A stretch of DNA of 64,000 nt from a virus (IMGVR_UViG_3300021399_000099:152911-216910), one strand, 5' to 3'; positions 9,439 to 29,665 are shown, counted from the first letter of the stretch. Notes: generated from the sequence alone by a model not told the origin. Translations and numbers: made by a program.

Positions 9439-9525
9439 AACGTAATCCTTTTTACATAATATAATACAAAAACTGTGCCAAAAAACAAAAATGACAGCAA
9501 AAAGTGAAAAATTTGCTGTCATTTG

Positions 9526-9597
9526 TGCCAGATACAGGATTCGAACCCGCATATCAACGTTTTAGGGACGCCCGCTTTACCAATCAGCTAATCTGGC
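9526..9597 (-). tRNA. Candidate amber suppressor tRNA (anticodon CUA, C33)
   Basis: Full cloverleaf GCCAGAT/ATCTGGC; anticodon arm GGCGT-CCCTAAA-ACGTT; TTCGAAT T-loop. Confidence 0.7.
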
Positions 9598-18591: not shown

Positions 18592-18961
18592 TGGAGCTGA
18601 CGCGACTCGAACGCGTGTCTTCAGGCATACCAATACGCTTTCTACATGCTTATTTCGGCTTAAAATCCAATAATCAAGAGCCGAGCACAACTTGATTATC
18701 TTTCTGAATCCAATCTTCCAGACCACTTTGTTTGCAATTACACTCCCATTGGGACGGATAACAAAGAAAACAGTCCCGAGAATGTTCGTCCCGACCCTGC
18801 CTTGGGGCCGATGGATTAAGCTAACTCACCTGGTGAATTAAGCAGCGAAAGAATACGCATAAGCGTCAACTATTTTTTTGAAGTTCTGATTAAAGTGGTT
18901 TCCTCCAATCCACTGCATGCTTACGGACCGCATATATCTGAATCAAAACCAGAACAGCCCC
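18592..18961 (-). ncRNA. ssrA: tmRNA, tag (A)DAYAYSFAA*
   Basis: 5' GGGGCTG / 3' CAGCTCC-A with G3:U70; T-arm; AAAAATAGTT|GAC GCT TAT GCG TAT TCT TTC GCT GCT TAA. Confidence 0.95.
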
Positions 18962-19105
18962 ATAAATAAAGCAACGTTGCCGAATCGAACTTTATTGTGG
19001 TGCTCAATTTTTCCACACCACTCACCGCTTCGAGCTACTCTTTCTTGCGCTCTAAGACATATCCTCGGGTGTCGCAAGTGTCGTTTAAACACCAACATTG
19101 CTTTG

Positions 19106-19179
19106 TGGACCGGATGGGATTCGAACCCACAACAACTAGAATGCAAATCTAGCGCTCTACCAATTGGAGCTACCAGCCC
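19106..19179 (-). tRNA. tRNA-Ala(TGC)
   Basis: G3:U70; TT-TGC-AT. Confidence 0.95.
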
Positions 19180-19482
19180 ATAATGTGATTTTTGTCTCCA
19201 TCAAATAGTTACTCATTGGTTATCCGGTTGCAACCGCACCTCAGACACTTGTCTTACCCGCACGGCCCTACTTCACTATTGACTTTAACCATTCCTGAGT
19301 TTTTTAACCTTTCTAAACTCCTTTCATCGGCTATTCACCTGCCTACTCACTAAATATAGTTTTTAAGGAGTAACGTTACCTCTCCCTTAGTGCTCATTTG
19401 GCTGCGCAACCGTGGTCTCGCACATAGCCACCGATATTAACGCATATCTCCACGACGCGCTTTAAGGACGGCGTAATCCTTG

Positions 19483-19568
19483 CGGAGAGCGGAGGTGTCG
19501 AACCCCATACGTTTCACCGTACGAATAGTTTTCAAGACTACCTTCGGAGCCGTCCGAATTCACTCTCC
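19483..19568 (-). tRNA. (8/4) tRNA-Ser(TGA)
   Basis: 8 bp acceptor GGAGAGTG/CGCTCTCC, 4 bp T-stem, 6 bp D-stem. Confidence 0.85.
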
Positions 19569-20495
19569 AAGATTGTTTCGTTTTCTATAGTCAGACATTG
19601 CGTGTTTTCCAACCCCAAAATGTTTTGCTATACTTTTCCACGTTAGTCCAGTTTCCCTAAGTTTTATTACTTCGGCTTTTGAAATATTATCAGTTTTTCT
19701 TTTTATATGTTCTTCTTTAATTTTTCTACCCTTTACCCACCCATTTTTAACATATTCTGCGAGGTCTTCCTTTTTTATTTTTAGGTTTTTTACGCCATTA
19801 GTAATCCAACATGTACCGTACTGTGAATTTTTAACACCAATTTGGTCGCCGTTTGCTCTGTGCGAATTTGACATCTTTTCTTTTGTTAACTCGGAATGGT
19901 TTCTTCCCACCCAAACAGCTTTTAATTCCCCGTTTAAATATCTTTCATCATCAAGATTAACAGACATCGTATTGCCGCTCATATCATAAACGGTTATTCT
20001 TCCTTTAGATTGATGAAGATACCTTTCTTGGTTATTTTTATATTCAGAGGTTTCAATAAGCTTATATTTTTCCTCTTCGGTGTCAAAAACTGCGATTTTT
20101 CCTTTAGAAAAGGGAACATATTTTCCGGAAAGATAATCTTCATCATCCGGCTTAATCCTATAAAAAACACCATTTTCGTCTCTAACCAAGATTGTTCCGG
20201 TGGTGACACCAAAATCACCACCAATTTTTAAGTTATAACAATTGGTATCCAAAACACAAGATTCGGTCACTACTTCATTTTCATATTCGGATGCCTGCTC
20301 TCGTGTTTTAAAATATTTTAGGATTGTCTTTTTAAAATTTTCCTTACCAAACTGTCTATACGCCCTTTTCAATCTCCTTCCAGACCCCATATAGCCATCC
20401 TCAATGTCGTTTGTTGAGTGTATCCCAAAATAATAATTTCCGTTTAACTGGTTTTCAATCTTATAAAAATAATGATATTTGTAATCACGTTCCAT
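19560..20495 (-). CDS. GIY-YIG homing endonuclease (Seg-like) with NUMOD3-like and HTH segments
   Basis: 'YFYKIEN.LNG.YYFGIHST...DGYMGSG', 'YNLKIGG', 'HSELTKEKMS'; stop overlaps the tRNA-Ser 5' end. Confidence 0.85.
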   Translation of the reverse strand: MERDYKYHYFYKIENQLNGNYYFGIHSTNDIEDGYMGSGRRLKRAYRQFGKENFKKTILKYFKTREQASEYENEVVTESCVLDTNCYNLKIGGDFGVTTGTILVRDENGVFYRIKPDDEDYLSGKYVPFSKGKIAVFDTEEEKYKLIETSEYKNNQERYLHQSKGRITVYDMSGNTMSVNLDDERYLNGELKAVWVGRNHSELTKEKMSNSHRANGDQIGVKNSQYGTCWITNGVKNLKIKKEDLAEYVKNGWVKGRKIKEEHIKRKTDNISKAEVIKLRETGLTWKSIAKHFGVGKHAMSDYRKRNNLGE

Positions 20496-20561
20496 ATGTT
20501 CGTATTTATAATATAAATATAACGAACACGCGAAACCATGTAAATATTTTTCAAAAAAAAC

Positions 20562-20628
20562 GGGAAACGGTTGTTGTTTTCAAAGCCAAAAATTGAATAT
20601 TAACGTTAAAACTTGCTGTGTGTTTCCC
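20562..20628 (-). ncRNA. Stand-alone ACAGCAA RNA displaying a Gln(TTG)-like loop
   Basis: GGGAAAC-AC-ACAGCAA...TTCAA-TTTTTGGCT-TTGAA...GTTTCCC. Confidence 0.65.
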
Positions 20629-20765
20629 TTATGTTTCTAATTACCACTATTCCCTTCTGGATTTCGTTATCCACTTTGGTCAGTACTGGGAAATCGGACA
20701 TCCTGACTTTGGTGCGGAATCTGGAATTGCACCGCTCCTACTTTCCTGATTTTATGGTAATTACG

Positions 20766-20849
20766 TGCGGCAGGTGAGACTCGAACTCACACGGGAATAA
20801 TGCCCACCAGTCCCTCAAACTGGCCTGGCTACCATTACAGCACTGCCGC
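20766..20849 (-). tRNA. tRNA-Leu(GAG)
   Basis: Class II cloverleaf; TT-GAG-GG. Confidence 0.9.
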
Positions 20850-20919
20850 ATAATGTCTGTTTCTTATCCTTTTCGGTCACCCTTAATAAGTGTTGAACAG
20901 ACCTAAAGTCTCCCTAGTA

Positions 20920-21042
20920 TGCTGAGAGTTGGATTCGAACCAACGCGTGTCAATTCCGTCGCACCAGAATTGTGATAGCGGGCTTCCCCATAGTTGCGAT
21001 TCCGGGGTCCTCCGCTGTGTTCAGCCACTTCACTACCTCAGC
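20920..21042 (-). tRNA. tRNA-like RNA with elongated anticodon and variable arms
   Basis: GCTGAGG/TCTCAGC; normal D and T arms. Confidence 0.5.
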
Positions 21043-21156
21043 CTTCGAGACCATATTTTTACCCGGCTGGTTAGACCGGTCCGACTTGTCAATGAACTTG
21101 CTTTATTAATATACAAAAACTGTGCCAAAAACACAAATTTTTTGCAAAAAATTTTG

Positions 21157-21237
21157 TCCGGATGGCTGGATTCGAACCAGCGAGGCGTTTGCGGGGCCTT
21201 ATGAGAGCCCTCCGATACCAGCTTCGGGCACATCCGG
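21157..21237 (-). tRNA. tRNA with CAT anticodon (Met/Ile2) and long variable loop
   Basis: GGGCT-CT-CAT-AA-GGCCC. Confidence 0.8.
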
Positions 21238-21244
21238 ATGCCTA

Positions 21245-21559
21245 TTACTTAAAAAGACCTTCGATTTTTCCTTTTATTTTCTTTATATCATCCTCAATTT
21301 CCTGAATAAGGTCATAATCGGAATCTTCCTTGTCAATTTCGGCTATTACTTTTTCAATGCCAATTATTTCACCCTTAAATATTTCGAGTGTTTCCGGGTC
21401 GTTTTTAGCGTTATCGTCGTTATTAATTTGTTTGATATGCTTTTCTATGTCCGAAAAACATGCCCTCATCTTATGAAGTTCATGATGCTTTGTTTCCTTA
21501 TAAGTCACATAACACCCTAGAACAATTAGCAATACAAATATTAAAATTATCCAAAACAT
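21245..21559 (-). CDS. Hypothetical membrane-anchored coiled-coil protein
   Basis: N-terminal TM segment, 104 aa. Confidence 0.6.
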   Translation of the reverse strand: MFWIILIFVLLIVLGCYVTYKETKHHELHKMRACFSDIEKHIKQINNDDNAKNDPETLEIFKGEIIGIEKVIAEIDKEDSDYDLIQEIEDDIKKIKGKIEGLFK

Positions 21560-21576
21560 AATACTATAATTTTTAA

Positions 21577-22677
21577 TTAGTTAGCAGGGGTGCAAGGATT
21601 CAAACCCTGACCAACGGTTTTTAGTATTTCCGGCATATATTTCTTAATGAAATCCATAAGCGTTTGTCTGTTAATACCGGTAGTTTTACTTAATTTAGTT
21701 AGCCACCCTCTTTCACTAGTATCTATTCCCGCCTCTACTATTATTTTTTTTCTATTTCTTATTTTTTCTTTATCTTCTTCCTTTTTTTTAATTTGGCTAT
21801 CTTTTCTCCTCTTTACTGACTCAATAGCCTTTTCTTTCGTATAACAAGTTGCATAAAAATCTGGGTCGTTTTTCATTAAAAATTCCCTAACATGTAATTG
21901 GGTCATTCCAACCAATTCGCCAGCTTTCTTTACCCACCCCCATTTTTGAAAATCTATCCCACTATTTTTTATAGTTTCAAGTTTTTCGGTTGTTGTTTTT
22001 ATTTTTTCCTCTTCTTTTTGAATTTTTTTATTTAGCTTTTCTTCAACCTCTTTTATTATTTCCTTTGCTGTTCTTTTCTTTGCATTTTTCCCGCAATAGT
22101 TATCAGTTAAAGCATGACAGTTTGGGCATAAAATCTGTAGGTTTTCAATAGAATTGTTGGTTCTGTCTCCGTCTATGTGATGAACTTGTAGTGGTATCGG
22201 TTCCCCTTCCCATTCAACTCTTCCACATCTTTCGCACACCCTTTCTTTAATCCCAAACTTAAACAAGTAACCAGATATTCTGCTACTTGATATTAAGCTT
22301 TCCTTTTTAAAAATATCTTCTTCTTTTAAAGAGTTTTTATGCTGGTTGCTTTTCCCCTTTCTATTAAAATGAGTGGTATCTAACCCATATTTTTTGGCGA
22401 TTTTTTTAAATTCTAAATATGTATTACTTCCTACACTCAAATTAAGCTCTTTTGCCACCTCTGAAAAATTGTTTTTTACTTTAATCAGTTCACAAACCGC
22501 TTTCTCCCTTTTTTCTTTTTCTTTTTGGTTTTGCGTAATGTGTTTTTGGTCTTCCATGAATTTTGGCGCAAGAACCAGTTTAATATATCTTTTATCCTCG
22601 TTTAAAATTTTAGAAATTTCTTCCCTTGTTTTTCCTTCATCATATAAGGCATATACCTTTTTCATTCGCTCGTTCAT
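21577..22677 (-). CDS. HNH homing endonuclease
   Basis: 'CERCG...LQVHHIDGDRTNNSIENLQILCPNCH'. Confidence 0.9.
   Translation of the reverse strand: MNERMKKVYALYDEGKTREEISKILNEDKRYIKLVLAPKFMEDQKHITQNQKEKEKREKAVCELIKVKNNFSEVAKELNLSVGSNTYLEFKKIAKKYGLDTTHFNRKGKSNQHKNSLKEEDIFKKESLISSSRISGYLFKFGIKERVCERCGRVEWEGEPIPLQVHHIDGDRTNNSIENLQILCPNCHALTDNYCGKNAKKRTAKEIIKEVEEKLNKKIQKEEEKIKTTTEKLETIKNSGIDFQKWGWVKKAGELVGMTQLHVREFLMKNDPDFYATCYTKEKAIESVKRRKDSQIKKKEEDKEKIRNRKKIIVEAGIDTSERGWLTKLSKTTGINRQTLMDFIKKYMPEILKTVGQGLNPCTPAN
21585..21622 (-). pseudogene. 3' half of a Trp-type tRNA embedded in the end of the HNH gene
   Basis: AAAACCGT-TGGT-CAGGG-TTTGAAT-CCTTG-CACCCCT-G. Confidence 0.6.
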
Positions 22678-22752
22678 CTCTTTTTATTTTTGCTATATAT
22701 AAATATATACGAACTTGGAAAAAAAATCAAGGTTTTAATTTTTTTTTACCTG

Positions 22753-22837
22753 CAAGAGTGGGAGGATTCGAACCCCCGAGGACATTACTCCTTCTGGTTT
22801 TGGAGACCAGTGCCATCAACCACTCGGCCACACTCTT
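22753..22837 (-). tRNA. tRNA-Trp(CCA) with long variable arm
   Basis: CTGGT-CT-CCA-AA-ACCAG. Confidence 0.85.
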
Positions 22838-22846
22838 ATATTTTAC

Positions 22847-22911
22847 GGGAAACTGTTTTTAATGTCGGCGTTACAGGCTGATTTTCAAAAGTAACTTGCT
22901 GTCTGTTTCCC
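22847..22911 (-). ncRNA. Stand-alone ACAGCAA RNA displaying a Tyr(GTA) anticodon stem-loop
   Basis: GGGAAAC-AG-ACAGCAA...TCAGC-CTGTAAC-GCCGA...GTTTCCC. Confidence 0.7.
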
Positions 22912-22921
22912 TATATTTTAT

Positions 22922-23392
22922 TTATCTTCTTGCCTTATAGTCGGCCATCGTAGTTGATAGCGGGCAGAGCGTCTTCCATCTACATTCAAATCCCTCTGAC
23001 TCAACCCATCCTTTAGCCGCACTAAAGGCTACGTTAGACCCAGCATCCTCATCCGGACTAATGTCAATGTCAATATACTTAACAAAGATGCCAGAATCCC
23101 TCATTAACTTTGCTACATCAAGAGAAGCCATTGTTTCGTCCATCATTCTGTCAAAAATCTCAGACTTCTTATATCTTCTACTTCTCCAAGTCCTGGAAAT
23201 AACGTGCGCCCCATGTCCATGCTCACCATCGCCACTGTCGTAAAGGGCGACAATTGTAGCAAAACAAGTGTGCCCGCCGTGGCATTGAGAGTCCGTACTA
23301 ACCATAATCTGGATATTACGGTGTGTGTGGCAGTAGTTGCCTACATAAGTTACCAGGTCTATTTTCTCCCCATTAAATTTCTTGAACTCCAT
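22922..23392 (-). CDS. RNase H-like YkuK/DUF458 family protein
   Basis: 'VSTDSQ...FATIVAL...GAH...RMMDE..SL..A...IDIDI...SN...AD'. Confidence 0.8.
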   Translation of the reverse strand: MEFKKFNGEKIDLVTYVGNYCHTHRNIQIMVSTDSQCHGGHTCFATIVALYDSGDGEHGHGAHVISRTWRSRRYKKSEIFDRMMDETMASLDVAKLMRDSGIFVKYIDIDISPDEDAGSNVAFSAAKGWVESEGFECRWKTLCPLSTTMADYKARR

Positions 23393-23432
23393 ACTTCATA
23401 CTCCTTAACTTTTATAAATATTATCCTTTTTG

Positions 23433-23516
23433 CGGAAGACTGAGGTGCCGACCCCCACACCATACAGTGCGCTTCGCTTTCAAGACGAGCCCCAAGGCCG
23501 CTCAGGTTAATCTTCC
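23433..23516 (-). tRNA. (8/4) tRNA-Ser(TGA)
   Basis: GGAAGATT/AGTCTTCC; T-stem GGGG/CCTC. Confidence 0.85.
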
Positions 23517-23525
23517 ATATTTGTG

Positions 23526-23608
23526 CGGATAGCGGAGGTCCCGACCCCCACCCCAAAAGGAGCGTACCGCTTTCGAGACGGACTTGAGCCCCGCCCAATT
23601 CACTATCC
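23526..23608 (-). tRNA. (8/4) tRNA-Ser(CGA)
   Basis: GGATAGTG/CGCTATCC; CT-CGA-AA. Confidence 0.85.
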
Positions 23609-23609
23609 G

Positions 23610-23699
23610 AGGAAGAGACTGGTACCGACCCAGACCCGTTTTTTAGACGAGCAGACACCTTTCCAGAGTGCTCCGGTAACCCCGACCGGTTCCTCTTCC
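23610..23699 (-). tRNA. (8/4) tRNA-Ser(GGA)
   Basis: GGAAGAGG/TCTCTTCC; CT-GGA-AA; T-stem CTGG/CCAG. Confidence 0.8.
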
Positions 23700-23703
23700 A
23701 ATA

Positions 23704-23797
23704 TGGCGGTGAGGGAGGGGCTCGAACCCTCGCGCCGGGTTTTAACCGACCTAACGGTTTAGCAAACCGTCCCCTTCACCAACTTGGGTACCTCACC
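23704..23797 (-). tRNA. tRNA-Ser(GCT), CCA encoded
   Basis: Canonical class II cloverleaf. Confidence 0.95.
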
Positions 23798-23801
23798 ATA
23801 G

Positions 23802-23872
23802 TTGGGATATTTAGATTCGAACTAAAATAACAACTTTCAGAGAGTTGCATGTTACCATTACATCATACCCCA
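23802..23872 (-). tRNA. tRNA-Gln(CTG)
   Basis: CAACT-CT-CTG-AA-AGTTG. Confidence 0.9.
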
Positions 23873-23879
23873 ATATTTA

Positions 23880-23947
23880 CAGGAAACATTTGTTCAGAAT
23901 GTTAGATTAAAAGTCTAGTCCTTAAAAACTTGCTGTATGTTTCCTTG
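23880..23947 (-). ncRNA. Stand-alone ACAGCAA RNA displaying a Lys(TTT) anticodon stem-loop
   Basis: GGAAAC-AT-ACAGCAA...TAGA-CTTTTAA-TCTA...GTTTCC. Confidence 0.75.
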
Positions 23948-24019
23948 AGCGGGTAGCCAGAATCGAACTGGCGTTTCCAGCATGGCAAGCTGGCGCACTA
24001 GCCACTGTGCTATACCCGC
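23948..24019 (-). tRNA. tRNA-Gly(GCC)
   Basis: CCAGC-TT-GCC-AT-GCTGG. Confidence 0.95.
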
Positions 24020-24187
24020 GAATGCACTTACTAAACCCATAATAACTGGTACCGCTTTTCATTACGGACAACATCGGTGCAATGTTTGCCATAGGCATCA
24101 TTGGATTTAACATCTTTCTCCATTTCAGGTCCATCAGCATCTTCCTCAACCGCAGAATCAAGTCCTGCTTTCATAGTATGGCTTTTG

Positions 24188-26123: not shown

Positions 26124-26218
26124 TGGGCAGGGAGGGATTCGAACCCTCTTACTGCGAAGTCCGCTACGACTATTTGTTAACGCAGATTGGTTTTACAGAC
26201 CAGTGCCGTTACCTACCC
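26124..26218 (-). tRNA. tRNA-Tyr(GTA) with relocated D-arm strand, copy 1
   Basis: Only TAACGGCA between acceptor and anticodon stems; enlarged variable arm contains TAGTCGTAGCGG. Confidence 0.75.
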
Positions 26219-26231
26219 ATTTTGGTTTTTG

Positions 26232-26409
26232 CGGGGATAGCAGGGCTCGAACCTACAACCTATTGATTAAGACCCGATAAGAGGAATCGAACCTCTGTTA
26301 CCATGTGTCGTAAGACTAGGTGTCCTATACCACTAAACGATACCGAGTTGGTTAATTTCGGATAACCGCCCCGTTTCAGTCAATTGCTCTACCATTGAGC
26401 TATATCCCC
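26232..26409 (-). tRNA. tRNA-Asn(GTT) with 106 nt intron (26271-26376) containing a nested tRNA
   Basis: ATTGA-CT-G|TT-AA-TCAAT. Confidence 0.85.
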
Positions 26410-29487: not shown

Positions 29488-29665
29488 TACCCCCGTGCAG
29501 ATTCGAACTGCAATTAAGAGTTTAGGATTGGGTAGCGGGAATTGAACCACGCGACACACTGAGGAATTGCTTCCACCGGCTCTGACCACCTGAGCTATAC
29601 CCGATAATTTGTTTCGGTAAATTACTCCGTGTAAGACTCTGGTCCTTCCATTGAACGACAGGGGC
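29488..29665 (-). tRNA. tRNA-Arg(TCT) with 107 nt intron (29526-29632) containing a nested tRNA-like element
   Basis: AGAGT-CT-T|CT-AA-ACTCT. Confidence 0.85.

What the first reader, a model, noticed from the sequence alone, without database searches (positions are those of the whole stretch)
20562..23947. Stand-alone mini-RNAs that display bare Lys, Tyr and Gln anticodon loops: candidate anticodon-nuclease decoys
Seen in sequence: each ~65 nt ACAGCAA RNA carries one hairpin matching an anticodon stem-loop. These are TAGA-CTTTTAA-TCTA (Lys UUU, 23880-23947), TCAGC-CTGTAAC-GCCGA (Tyr GUA, 22847-22911) and TTCAA-tTTTTGGCt-TTGAA (Gln UUG-like, the weakest, 20562-20628). None has D, T or acceptor arms, so they cannot decode. 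Established knowledge: tRNA-Lys(UUU) is cut by PrrC and PARIS AriB, and tRNA-Tyr(GUA) by retron Ec78 PtuAB and colicin E5. Inference: these are decoy substrates, or cleavage-triggered sensors that open or release a bound protein when the host ACNase fires.
Basis: partly seen in the sequence, partly recalled or inferred. Interest (0 to 1): 0.85.

Follow-up and report, generated by a model that had tools for sequence, protein, structure and literature searches.

The report
Phage Y-like RNAs displaying anticodon arms
Three ~65-base RNA genes in a giant rumen phage's tRNA cluster are the smallest members of a widespread, apparently undescribed phage RNA family that joins one constant "handle" (probably the docking site of the phage's Ro60-like ring protein) to a copy of a tRNA anticodon arm; they might bait or sense tRNA-cutting defence enzymes, but that is untested.

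Summary
The three elements are real (minus strand: 20563-20627, 22848-22910, 23882-23944). Each has a closing helix (GGAAAC/GUUUCC), the invariant letters ACAGCAA, an A-rich return strand and an apical hairpin. Two hairpins are textbook anticodon arms (Lys UUU, Tyr GUA). The third has a 9-nt loop and is not.

Across IMG/VR I collected 115 non-redundant "minis" in phage tRNA arrays. Of these, 78 carry a 7-nt U33/R37 loop on a 4-5 bp stem, against 27±4 in shuffles. Helix and stem covary. Within families the stem and positions 32/33 stay fixed while the triplet 34-36 switches.

The same handle frames whole, side-armed and back-to-front (YrlA-like) tRNA mimics. The phage encodes a DUF2828/DUF7788 protein whose model matches only Ro60/TROVE structures. 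It is syntenic with RtcB and the arrays in relatives.

In three cultured phages (Leptolyngbya Lbo-JY46, Vibrio BUCT194, Campylobacter F348), ACAGCAA-handle RNAs lie directly beside this gene. The best reading is therefore Y-RNA-like partners of a phage Ro60-like protein that display anticodon arms.

The decoy/sensor idea is compatible but unproven. The anticodon set is broader than the known nuclease targets. This scan had already met the family on other DNA. I found no paper describing it.

The parts
23882..23944 (-). Mini 3: handle RNA with a Lys(UUU) anticodon-arm mimic. Closing helix 23937-23944 / 23882-23889; ACAGCAA 23930-23936.
   Evidence: sequence. R1 73.8 bits, E 6e-14. The interior 38 nt are almost identical in two other phages despite different flanks and a covarying helix.
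23902..23918 (-). Apical hairpin of mini 3: CUAGA-CUUUUAA-UCUAA
22848..22910 (-). Mini 2: handle RNA with a Tyr(GUA) anticodon-arm mimic. Helix GGGAAAC/GUUUCCC reaches 22847-22911; ACAGCAA 22896-22902.
   Evidence: R1 56.2 bits, E 4e-10. The same stem UCAGC/GCCGA carries a CUUUUAA loop in another phage.
22865..22881 (-). Apical hairpin of mini 2: UCAGC-CUGUAAC-GCCGA
20563..20627 (-). Mini 1: handle RNA whose apical hairpin (20579-20597) has a 9-nt loop, not a canonical anticodon loop. ACAGCAA 20613-20619.
   Evidence: R1 35.3 bits, E 1.7e-5, with a loop insertion; fold.
15059..15173 (-). Same handle framing a back-to-front (3' half, then 5' half) tRNA-like domain, in YrlA-like topology.
   Evidence: Weak YrlA hit at 15070-15134. 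RNA contigs from two studies stop at 15173.
16782..16902 (-). tRNA-Lys(UUU)-like gene carrying the handle, loop-capped, as a side arm between positions 29 and 30 of the anticodon stem.
   Evidence: Rfam tRNA 48.8 bits over 121 nt; motif at 16833-16850; fold.
18433..18563 (-). Same handle framing a normal-order tRNA-Ser(GGA).

Best explanation
The three elements are small Y-RNA-like non-coding RNAs.

Shown: each is a rod. Its base is a constant handle made of a 7-8 bp helix formed by the two ends, then an internal loop with the invariant 5'-strand letters ACAGCAA opposite an A-rich 3' strand. Its tip is a tRNA-derived effector module, here an anticodon arm.

Inferred: the handle is the docking site of the phage's Ro60-like ring protein (DUF2828/DUF7788 plus a vWA domain; own genome G000:66701-68302, outside the window). 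This would parallel the way the GGUCCGA/CGAA bulged stem of Y RNAs docks Ro60.

Inferred by analogy with Y RNAs, which tether Ro60 to other proteins and gate its cavity: the displayed anticodon arm recruits or competitively occupies proteins that recognise anticodon loops, most plausibly host tRNA-cutting enzymes. This would work together with the RtcB ligase that lies between the Ro60-like gene and the array in related phages.

The switching triplet on a constant scaffold would set which tRNA is mimicked.
For: 1. RNA structure. The closing helix covaries perfectly through at least 7 hexamer variants. On 22 minis, 96.2% of cells pair against 77.4+-1.5 in shuffles, all 5 apical-stem pairs change on both sides, and the slide controls collapse.

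2. Anticodon-arm display. 78/115 minis against 26.6+-4.0 in shuffles; 37/115 against 2.3+-1.5 under the strict definition; 17/113 and 6/113 in chance hits outside arrays.

3. Selection. The interior of mini 3 is conserved in three phages with unrelated flanks. Two 412-kb phages that are about 91% identical locally differ in their 63-nt mini only at positions 35 and 36. Within families, the stem and positions 32/33 show about 0 changes while positions 34-36 show 5, 5 and 6.

4. Y-RNA architecture. The same handle frames back-to-front tRNA-like domains with a sealed acceptor stem. These hit Rfam YrlA at 34-41 bits, E 5e-7 to 7e-4, below the gathering score. These copies duplicate ordinary tRNAs in the arrays.

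5. Protein partner. The model of the own-genome protein (pLDDT 76.9) has Ro60/TROVE structures as its 13 best PDB matches, E 2.6e-8 to 1e-4. The gene is present in 8 of 8 near-complete handle-bearing genomes tested. It is co-oriented upstream of RtcB and the array in several.

6. Independent lineages. In cultured Leptolyngbya phage Lbo-JY46, five ACAGCAA-handle RNAs fill the gap right after this gene. In Vibrio phage BUCT194 and Campylobacter phage F348 they lie right before it. R1 gives E 1e-7 to 2e-4 with compensated helices.

7. Distribution. The pattern is at chance level in 596 Gb of prokaryotic genomes: 7 hits, of which only 2 are genuine, on MAG contigs that carry several tRNA genes and are probably phage (my inference).

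8. Literature. Ro60, Y RNA and RtcB are co-encoded in Salmonella and induced by anticodon-loop-cleaved tRNAs. The authors suggest YrlA may competitively inhibit the nuclease (PMC7790460). Phage phiLo Ro60 binds phage Y-like RNAs (PMC12135203).
Against: No binding, expression level or RNA ends were measured.

The handle motif ACAGCAA differs from the known Ro60-binding motifs (GGUCCGA, GNCGAAN0-1G, CGAA).

Pfam TROVE does not detect the protein.

In this genome the Ro60-like gene lies about 95 kb from the array, and no RtcB was found in the 61%-complete record.

The large rumen and gut phages are probably one clade, so co-occurrence among them is not independent. The three cultured phages are the independent cases.

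The minis fold weakly (z -0.9 to -2.1).

The anticodon set is broad, which does not single out nuclease targets.

Mini 1 lacks a canonical loop.
Confidence: 0.55

Rival explanations
1. Free anticodon-nuclease decoys or cleavage-triggered sensors. The loops are cut or bound by host PrrC-, AriB-, PtuAB- or colicin-like enzymes, independently of any Ro60-like partner.
For: Genuine anticodon loops under selection, with a fast-switching triplet. Lys UUU is the commonest loop and Tyr, His and Asp also occur. Hughes et al. raise a competitive-inhibitor idea for YrlA (PMC7790460).
Against: Pro UGG, Cys GCA, Ser UGA and Ile GAU are about as common. This looks like a general tRNA repertoire. The invariant handle and its adjacency to a Ro60-like gene in three cultured phages need a partner protein. 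Unmodified stem-loops are poor PrrC substrates (my own knowledge). Nothing was tested.
Confidence: 0.15
2. The handle is a splice or circularisation signal, functionally like the archaeal bulge-helix-bulge motif. It lets RtcB join back-to-front and interrupted tRNA genes into working tRNAs. On this view the minis are emptied or degenerate cassettes.
For: Back-to-front units have matching, covarying acceptor strands and complete anticodon arms split at position 29/30. RtcB is present in 7 of 8 large relatives. A tandem pair of side-armed tRNAs at 16782-17020 shows how such units can arise.
Against: No splicing endonuclease was found. The flanks show no bulge-helix-bulge geometry (my inspection of the units). 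The distance from the core to the junction varies from 11 to 20 nt. Handle-bearing copies duplicate ordinary tRNAs. The RNA contigs show no spliced joint. The 115 conserved minis and the tandem handle RNAs beside a Ro60-like gene have no role in this model.
Confidence: 0.12
3. Processing punctuation. The rod is cut at its base by RNase P, RNase E or a similar enzyme to separate tRNAs and mRNAs in the polycistronic array transcript. The apical hairpin would be incidental.
For: Minis sit at tRNA-tRNA and ORF-tRNA borders. RNA contigs from two studies end exactly at the first G of the handle at 15173, and another ends at 23943.
Against: This does not explain the invariant ACAGCAA, the selection on anticodon-loop geometry, or the five tandem copies next to a Ro60-like gene without tRNAs between them. 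Contig ends are weak evidence.
Confidence: 0.08
4. Decaying remnants of tRNA genes, or a small DNA-level mobile element (inverted-repeat cassette) spread by the homing endonucleases in the array. No RNA function.
For: A graded series of cargoes runs from whole tRNA, through T arm plus anticodon arm, to a single arm. The same mini appears in different flanking contexts. GIY-YIG and HNH genes lie beside the minis. The helix shows no G-U pairs, so an RNA-level constraint cannot be proven from the pairs alone.
Against: Strict strand bias with the tRNAs. The interior is conserved while the flanks diverge by about 9%. The apical stem changes are compensatory. The asymmetric one-strand motif is conserved across cyanophage, vibriophage, campylophage and rumen phages.
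Confidence: 0.06

Closest known systems
YrlA/YrlB Y RNAs with Rsr (Ro60) of bacteria and mycobacteriophages (Rfam RF02553; Chen et al. 2014, PMC4201824)
   Same: The 5' and 3' ends pair into a stem with a conserved 5'-strand motif next to an internal loop. The other end is a tRNA-derived module. The larger family members have the YrlA order: T arm, sealed acceptor stem, D arm. They are co-encoded with a Ro60-fold protein and often RtcB. A small version without the tRNA-like domain also exists (YrlB).
   Different: The motif is ACAGCAA, not GNCGAAN0-1G. The partner is a DUF2828/DUF7788 protein that Pfam TROVE does not detect. There are 8-12 copies per genome, scattered through tRNA arrays. The minis display a true anticodon loop, which YrlA lacks. 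The Rfam score is far below gathering for the large members and absent for the minis.
Thermus phage phiLo Ro60 with Yrl1/Yrl2 (PMC12135203; PDB 9KOP, 9L5Y)
   Same: A phage-encoded Ro60 ring with phage-encoded stem-bulge-stem RNAs beside the gene. These are the best structural matches of the protein modelled here.
   Different: The phiLo RNAs carry a CGAA bulge and no anticodon arm. Binding and a PNPase complex are shown for phiLo. Nothing is shown here.
Circularly permuted and intron-containing tRNA genes processed through bulge-helix-bulge motifs (archaea, red algae; reviewed in PMC4090602)
   Same: Back-to-front and interrupted tRNA-like genes share one flanking helix motif. An RtcB ligase is present.
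   Different: No bulge-helix-bulge geometry and no endonuclease gene. The copies are redundant with ordinary tRNAs. The minis have no counterpart.
Phage tRNAs that evade anticodon nucleases (for example T5 tRNAs against PARIS AriB, PMC12409363)
   Same: A phage answer to tRNA-targeting defence that centres on the anticodon loop.
   Different: Those are full decoding tRNAs that replace cut host tRNAs. The minis cannot decode.

Membership tests
Y RNA (Ro60 partner RNA) | The 5' and 3' ends pair into a stem adjoining an internal loop or bulge | tested here: met
   The closing helix is 100% paired, with 3 of 6 pairs covarying in A1 and at least 7 hexamer variants overall. Compensated again in cultured phages.
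Y RNA (Ro60 partner RNA) | Conserved Ro60-binding motif on the 5' strand (GGUCCGA / GNCGAAN0-1G / CGAA) | tested here: not met
   The invariant motif at the analogous place is ACAGCAA. The motif definitions come from PMC4201824 and PMC12135203.
Y RNA (Ro60 partner RNA) | Encoded within a few kb of, and on the same strand as, a Ro60 gene | tested here: inconclusive
   Met in Lbo-JY46, BUCT194 and F348 (directly adjacent). In the relatives where I compared coordinates the nearest handle lies about 4-17 kb from the gene. In this genome it is the same strand but about 95 kb away.
Y RNA (Ro60 partner RNA) | Bound by a Ro60-fold protein | not testable with these tools
   Only the fold of the candidate partner was tested. 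The top 13 PDB matches are Ro60/TROVE.
YrlA (Rfam RF02553) | Reaches the family's gathering score (69 bits) | tested here: not met
   The minis give no hit. The back-to-front units score 34-41 bits.
tRNA | Cloverleaf with acceptor, D and T arms | tested here: not met
   ARAGORN and Rfam call none of the three. Only an anticodon-arm-like hairpin is present.
Bulge-helix-bulge intron / permuted tRNA precursor | Splicing endonuclease present and two 3-nt bulges 4 bp apart at the junctions | tested here: not met
   PF01974 is absent from 5 genomes at E<=1. The flanks of the units do not form that geometry (my inspection).
Known self-cleaving ribozymes (Rfam hammerhead, twister, pistol, hatchet, HDV-like, hairpin) | Match to a family model | tested here: not met
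   No such hit at E<=10 over 14500-24100.

The most novel reading that the evidence does not exclude
A programmable phage 'tRNA-damage alarm'. Each mini parks on the Ro60-like ring and offers one anticodon loop as bait. When a host anticodon nuclease of that specificity fires, the bait is cut. The RNA then releases or opens the ring, which engages damaged tRNAs together with RtcB (and perhaps host PNPase) for repair or clearance. The rapidly switching triplet on a constant scaffold would record an arms race over nuclease specificity.
Probability: 0.12. Interest if true: 0.9.

Novelty: new variant of a known kind. Interest (0 to 1): 0.7.

Why it matters
Ro60-like (DUF2828) genes occur in hundreds of cultured phages: 675 GenBank records matched, including T4-like, N4-like, Listeria, Campylobacter and mycobacterial phages. 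Their RNA partners and purpose are largely unknown.

A recognisable handle (helix plus ACAGCAA) that marks the partner RNAs would allow them to be annotated genome-wide. The finding that many display real anticodon arms with a switching triplet gives a concrete, testable link between Ro60/Y-RNA biology, RtcB repair and tRNA-targeting anti-phage defence.

Three cultured phages now offer bench systems.

Tried and rejected
- **Rfam.** Searches at gathering and at E<=10 found nothing on the minis.
- **Splicing or permuted-tRNA reading.** This was my first reading. I rejected it as the main explanation because there is no endonuclease, no bulge-helix-bulge geometry, the copies are redundant with ordinary tRNAs, and the minis would have no role.
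- **Pfam TROVE search.** Negative in 5 genomes. The partner surfaced only through an earlier scan note, synteny and structure.
- **PDB sequence search** of the protein profile: nothing.
- **G-U versus A-C test** for RNA-level pairing: uninformative, because the helices are almost always perfect.
- **RNA evidence.** Only Logan contigs of four metatranscriptomes were available. Minis 1 and 2 are not covered. Mini 3 is covered only by a divergent relative's contig in a sheep-gut run. No joints appear at the handle junctions.
- **blastn of mini 3** against 50,697 GenBank phages: no match. The family was found there only through the neighbouring gene and the covariance model.
- **RNaseH-like ORF 22922-23392** as a conserved array nuclease: not conserved in related arrays.
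- **Literature searches** for permuted tRNAs in phages, phage anticodon decoys, and DUF2828: nothing relevant.
Full report
**What is there**

The window is part of a 216.9-kb IMG/VR virus record, 61% complete. It carries 48 tRNA genes, a tmRNA and a tRNA-Sec-like gene, all on the minus strand between 9.5 and 30 kb. Sequencing runs that hold it are rumen and gut metagenomes.

The three elements read, on the minus strand: GGAAAC, A-N, ACAGCAAGUU, about 40 nt containing a hairpin, an A-rich run, then GUUUCC. The extended motif occurs three times exactly, against 0.26 matches (at up to 3 mismatches) expected by chance.

- Mini 3 (23882-23944) carries CUAGA-CUUUUAA-UCUAA.
- Mini 2 (22848-22910) carries UCAGC-CUGUAAC-GCCGA.
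- Mini 1 (20563-20627) has a 5-bp stem closing a 9-nt loop, which is not a canonical anticodon loop.

None is called a tRNA or any Rfam family.

**The family**

The same 5' motif occurs elsewhere in the window. It sits inside a 121-nt tRNA-Lys-like gene (16782-16902), in front of a back-to-front tRNA-like unit (15059-15173), and around a tRNA-Ser (18433-18563).

Related huge phages of 241-413 kb carry 4-12 strand-specific copies per record. The reversed-pattern control gave 0-1.

The 5' hexamer varies: GGAAAC, GGAAGC, GGGAAC, GGAATC, GGAGTC, GGGTAC, AGGAAC. In every case an exactly complementary hexamer follows, either 35-79 nt downstream ("minis") or 94-167 nt downstream (tRNA-sized cargo). 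What stays constant is the helix, then two variable nucleotides, then ACAGCA followed usually by A, and an A-rich strand before the 3' half of the helix.

Three IMG/VR scans were filtered by a criterion independent of the cargo: a same-strand tRNA within 1.5 kb. This gave 115 non-redundant minis. The 113 hits outside arrays look like chance, since only 42 have A after the core, against 108 of 115 in arrays.

| Definition of anticodon arm | Array minis | Shuffles | Non-array hits |
|---|---|---|---|
| Stem of at least 4/5 bp, 7-nt loop, U at loop position 2 and a purine at position 6 | 78/115 | 26.6±4.0 (max 41 of 200) | 17/113 |
| Strict (5/5 bp, Y32, U33, R37) | 37/115 | 2.3±1.5 | 6/113 (Fisher p = 1e-7) |

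The loops are identity-typical: CUUUUAA, UUUGGGU, CUGCAAA, CUUGAAA, CUGUAAA, CUGAUAA, UUGUCAC, CUGUGAA.

On an alignment of 22 minis, 96.2% of cells pair against 77.4±1.5 in shuffles. All five apical-stem pairs change on both sides. Sliding the partner columns drops pairing to 18.6-59.6%. Because I chose those rows for having a hairpin, the unbiased shuffle test carries more weight.

**Signs of selection**

The interior of mini 3 (about 38 nt) is nearly identical in three phages. In those phages the neighbouring tRNAs are unrelated, and in one the closing helix has changed in a compensated way to GAAAUC/GAUUUC.

Two 412-kb phages that are about 91% identical around the locus differ in their 63-nt mini at two positions only. 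Both are in the triplet (CUGCUAA against CUGUAAA).

I grouped minis into families without using positions 34-36. Across those families, the stem and positions 32/33 show almost no changes, while positions 34, 35 and 36 show 5, 5 and 6. The stem of mini 2, UCAGC/GCCGA, carries a Lys loop in another phage.

So the scaffold is kept and the "anticodon" is swapped.

**What the handle is**

My first reading was a splice or circularisation signal, for three reasons:

- The larger units are back-to-front tRNAs with matching, covarying acceptor strands.
- RtcB is encoded in 7 of 8 large relatives.
- A tandem pair of side-armed tRNAs could generate such units.

Against this reading:

- No splicing endonuclease is present.
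- There is no bulge-helix-bulge geometry.
- The handle-bearing copies duplicate ordinary tRNAs of the same anticodon.
- The RNA contigs show no spliced joint.
- The minis would be pointless.

Rfam then placed the back-to-front units nearest to YrlA, the bacterial Y RNA. Scores were 34-41 bits, E 5e-7 to 7e-4, below the gathering score of 69. YrlA has exactly this order: anticodon-side ends, T arm, sealed acceptor stem, D arm, all on a protein-binding stem (PMC4201824).

**The partner protein**

Earlier notes of this scan on other genomes had reached a similar reading and mentioned a Ro60-shaped protein. I tested that here.

- Upstream of the array in the 401-kb relative lies a 540-aa DUF7788 protein with weak DUF2828 and vWA matches.
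- Its 52%-identical homologue is in this phage's genome at G000:66701-68302.
- A model of the own-genome protein, built from 24 homologues (pLDDT 76.9), has Ro60/TROVE structures as its 13 best PDB matches. These include the Ro60 of Thermus phage phiLo, at E 2.6e-8 to 1e-4.
- The gene is present in 8 of 8 near-complete handle-bearing genomes tested.
- In several it lies co-oriented upstream of RtcB and the array. This recalls the Salmonella rsr-yrlBA-rtcBA operon (PMC7790460).

**Independent confirmation in cultured phages**

The protein family matches 675 GenBank phage records.

- **Leptolyngbya phage Lbo-JY46:** the 390-nt gap right after the gene holds five tandem units of "helix, ACAGCAA, cargo, helix". 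Two or three of them carry Lys- or Cys-type loops.
- **Vibrio phage BUCT194:** the 693-nt gap right before the gene holds at least five such units, including minis with CUGCUAA and CUUCUAA loops and back-to-front tRNA-like cargo.
- **Campylobacter phage F348:** two units lie right before the gene. One has the same inner flanks (UUUUAAGGA … AUUCU) as mini 3 but an Ile-type loop.

The covariance model built only from rumen-phage minis finds these at E 1e-7 to 2e-4, with fully different but compensated helices.

A specific pattern for the minis is at chance level in 596 Gb of prokaryotic genomes. There were 7 hits, of which only 2 are genuine, on MAG contigs that carry several tRNA genes and are probably phage (my inference).

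**Mechanism**

Shown:
- A conserved rod-shaped RNA gene with a constant handle and an anticodon-arm tip.
- A Ro60-fold protein gene linked to handle RNAs in four unrelated phage groups.

Inferred:
- The handle docks that protein.
- The tip engages anticodon-loop-binding proteins, as a tether, gate or competitive bait.
- RtcB repairs cut tRNAs.

The literature offers a precedent for the last two steps only as speculation. [quoted passage not shown] Phage phiLo Ro60 binds its Y-like RNAs and host PNPase (PMC12135203).

But the displayed anticodons (Lys, Pro, Cys, Ser, Tyr, Ile, Asp, His and others) resemble a general tRNA repertoire more than a list of known nuclease targets. Nothing functional was tested.

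**Novelty**

Y RNAs with tRNA-like domains, and phage Ro60 proteins, are known. I found no paper on the ACAGCAA handle, on its DUF2828-type partner, on multi-copy dispersal through tRNA arrays, or on minis that display true anticodon loops with a switching triplet.

The same family has already been noted by this scan on other DNA. I rate it a new variant of a known kind.

Noticed in passing
window 14700-15056 (-): About 350 nt with no ORF or Rfam hit, lying between the back-to-front unit and tRNA-Glu. Metatranscriptome contigs from four runs cover it, at word depth up to 128. It may be an unrecognised structured RNA.
   Followed up: no
window 14996-15173: RNA contigs from two different studies (X15, X16) have identical ends, 14996 and 15173. 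Position 15173 is the first G of a handle. Another contig stops at 23943, inside the handle of mini 3. This is a weak hint that RNAs begin or end at the base of the handle.
   Followed up: partly
window 16782-17020 (-): Two adjacent side-armed tRNA-like genes (Pro-like, then Lys). The handle 5' strand of the first (GGAAGC at 16982) pairs perfectly with the 3' strand of the second (GCUUCC, 16857-16862). This frames a chimeric 'Pro 3' half plus Lys 5' half', and looks like a snapshot of how back-to-front units arise.
   Followed up: partly
window 16520-16680 (-): A further handle variant (UGAAAC-CAG-GCAGCA, loop-capped) inside a Met/Ile-like (CAU) tRNA-like gene that neither ARAGORN nor Rfam calls.
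   Followed up: no
window 14500-14620 (-): A handle-like unit with an extra 17-nt insert between GUGAAAC and ACAGCAAG, in front of a CAU-loop tRNA 3' half.
   Followed up: no
window 20920-21042, 26124-26218, 26276-26406, 29488-29665 (-): Rfam tRNA hits 95-178 nt long, with large insertions that lack the ACAGCAA motif. Their nature is unknown.
   Followed up: no
window 9525-9597, 18589-18961, 19483-19569 (-): The array also holds an amber-suppressor-type tRNA (anticodon CUA), a tmRNA (tag DAYAYSFAA) and a tRNA-Sec-like gene (49.5 bits, gathering score 47). Even so, long ORFs read normally under code 11.
   Followed up: no
window 19560-20495, 21577-22677, 22922-23392 (-): GIY-YIG and HNH homing-endonuclease genes and an RNaseH-like (PF04308) gene are interleaved with the minis. 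HNH relatives recur in related arrays, but the RNaseH-like gene does not.
   Followed up: partly
L155 10112, L158 1524; L031 8244, L158 1735, L156 11678: The handle also frames two conserved non-tRNA cargoes of about 95-167 nt (with the GGAAGC and AGGAAC helices). Neither has an Rfam match.
   Followed up: no
L167, L168, L192, L217, L234, L307: Several records that matched the mini search patterns are labelled giant-virus MAGs (GVMAG) in IMG/VR; four of them (L168, L192, L234, L307) hold minis next to tRNA genes. They are probably mis-binned large phages.
   Followed up: no
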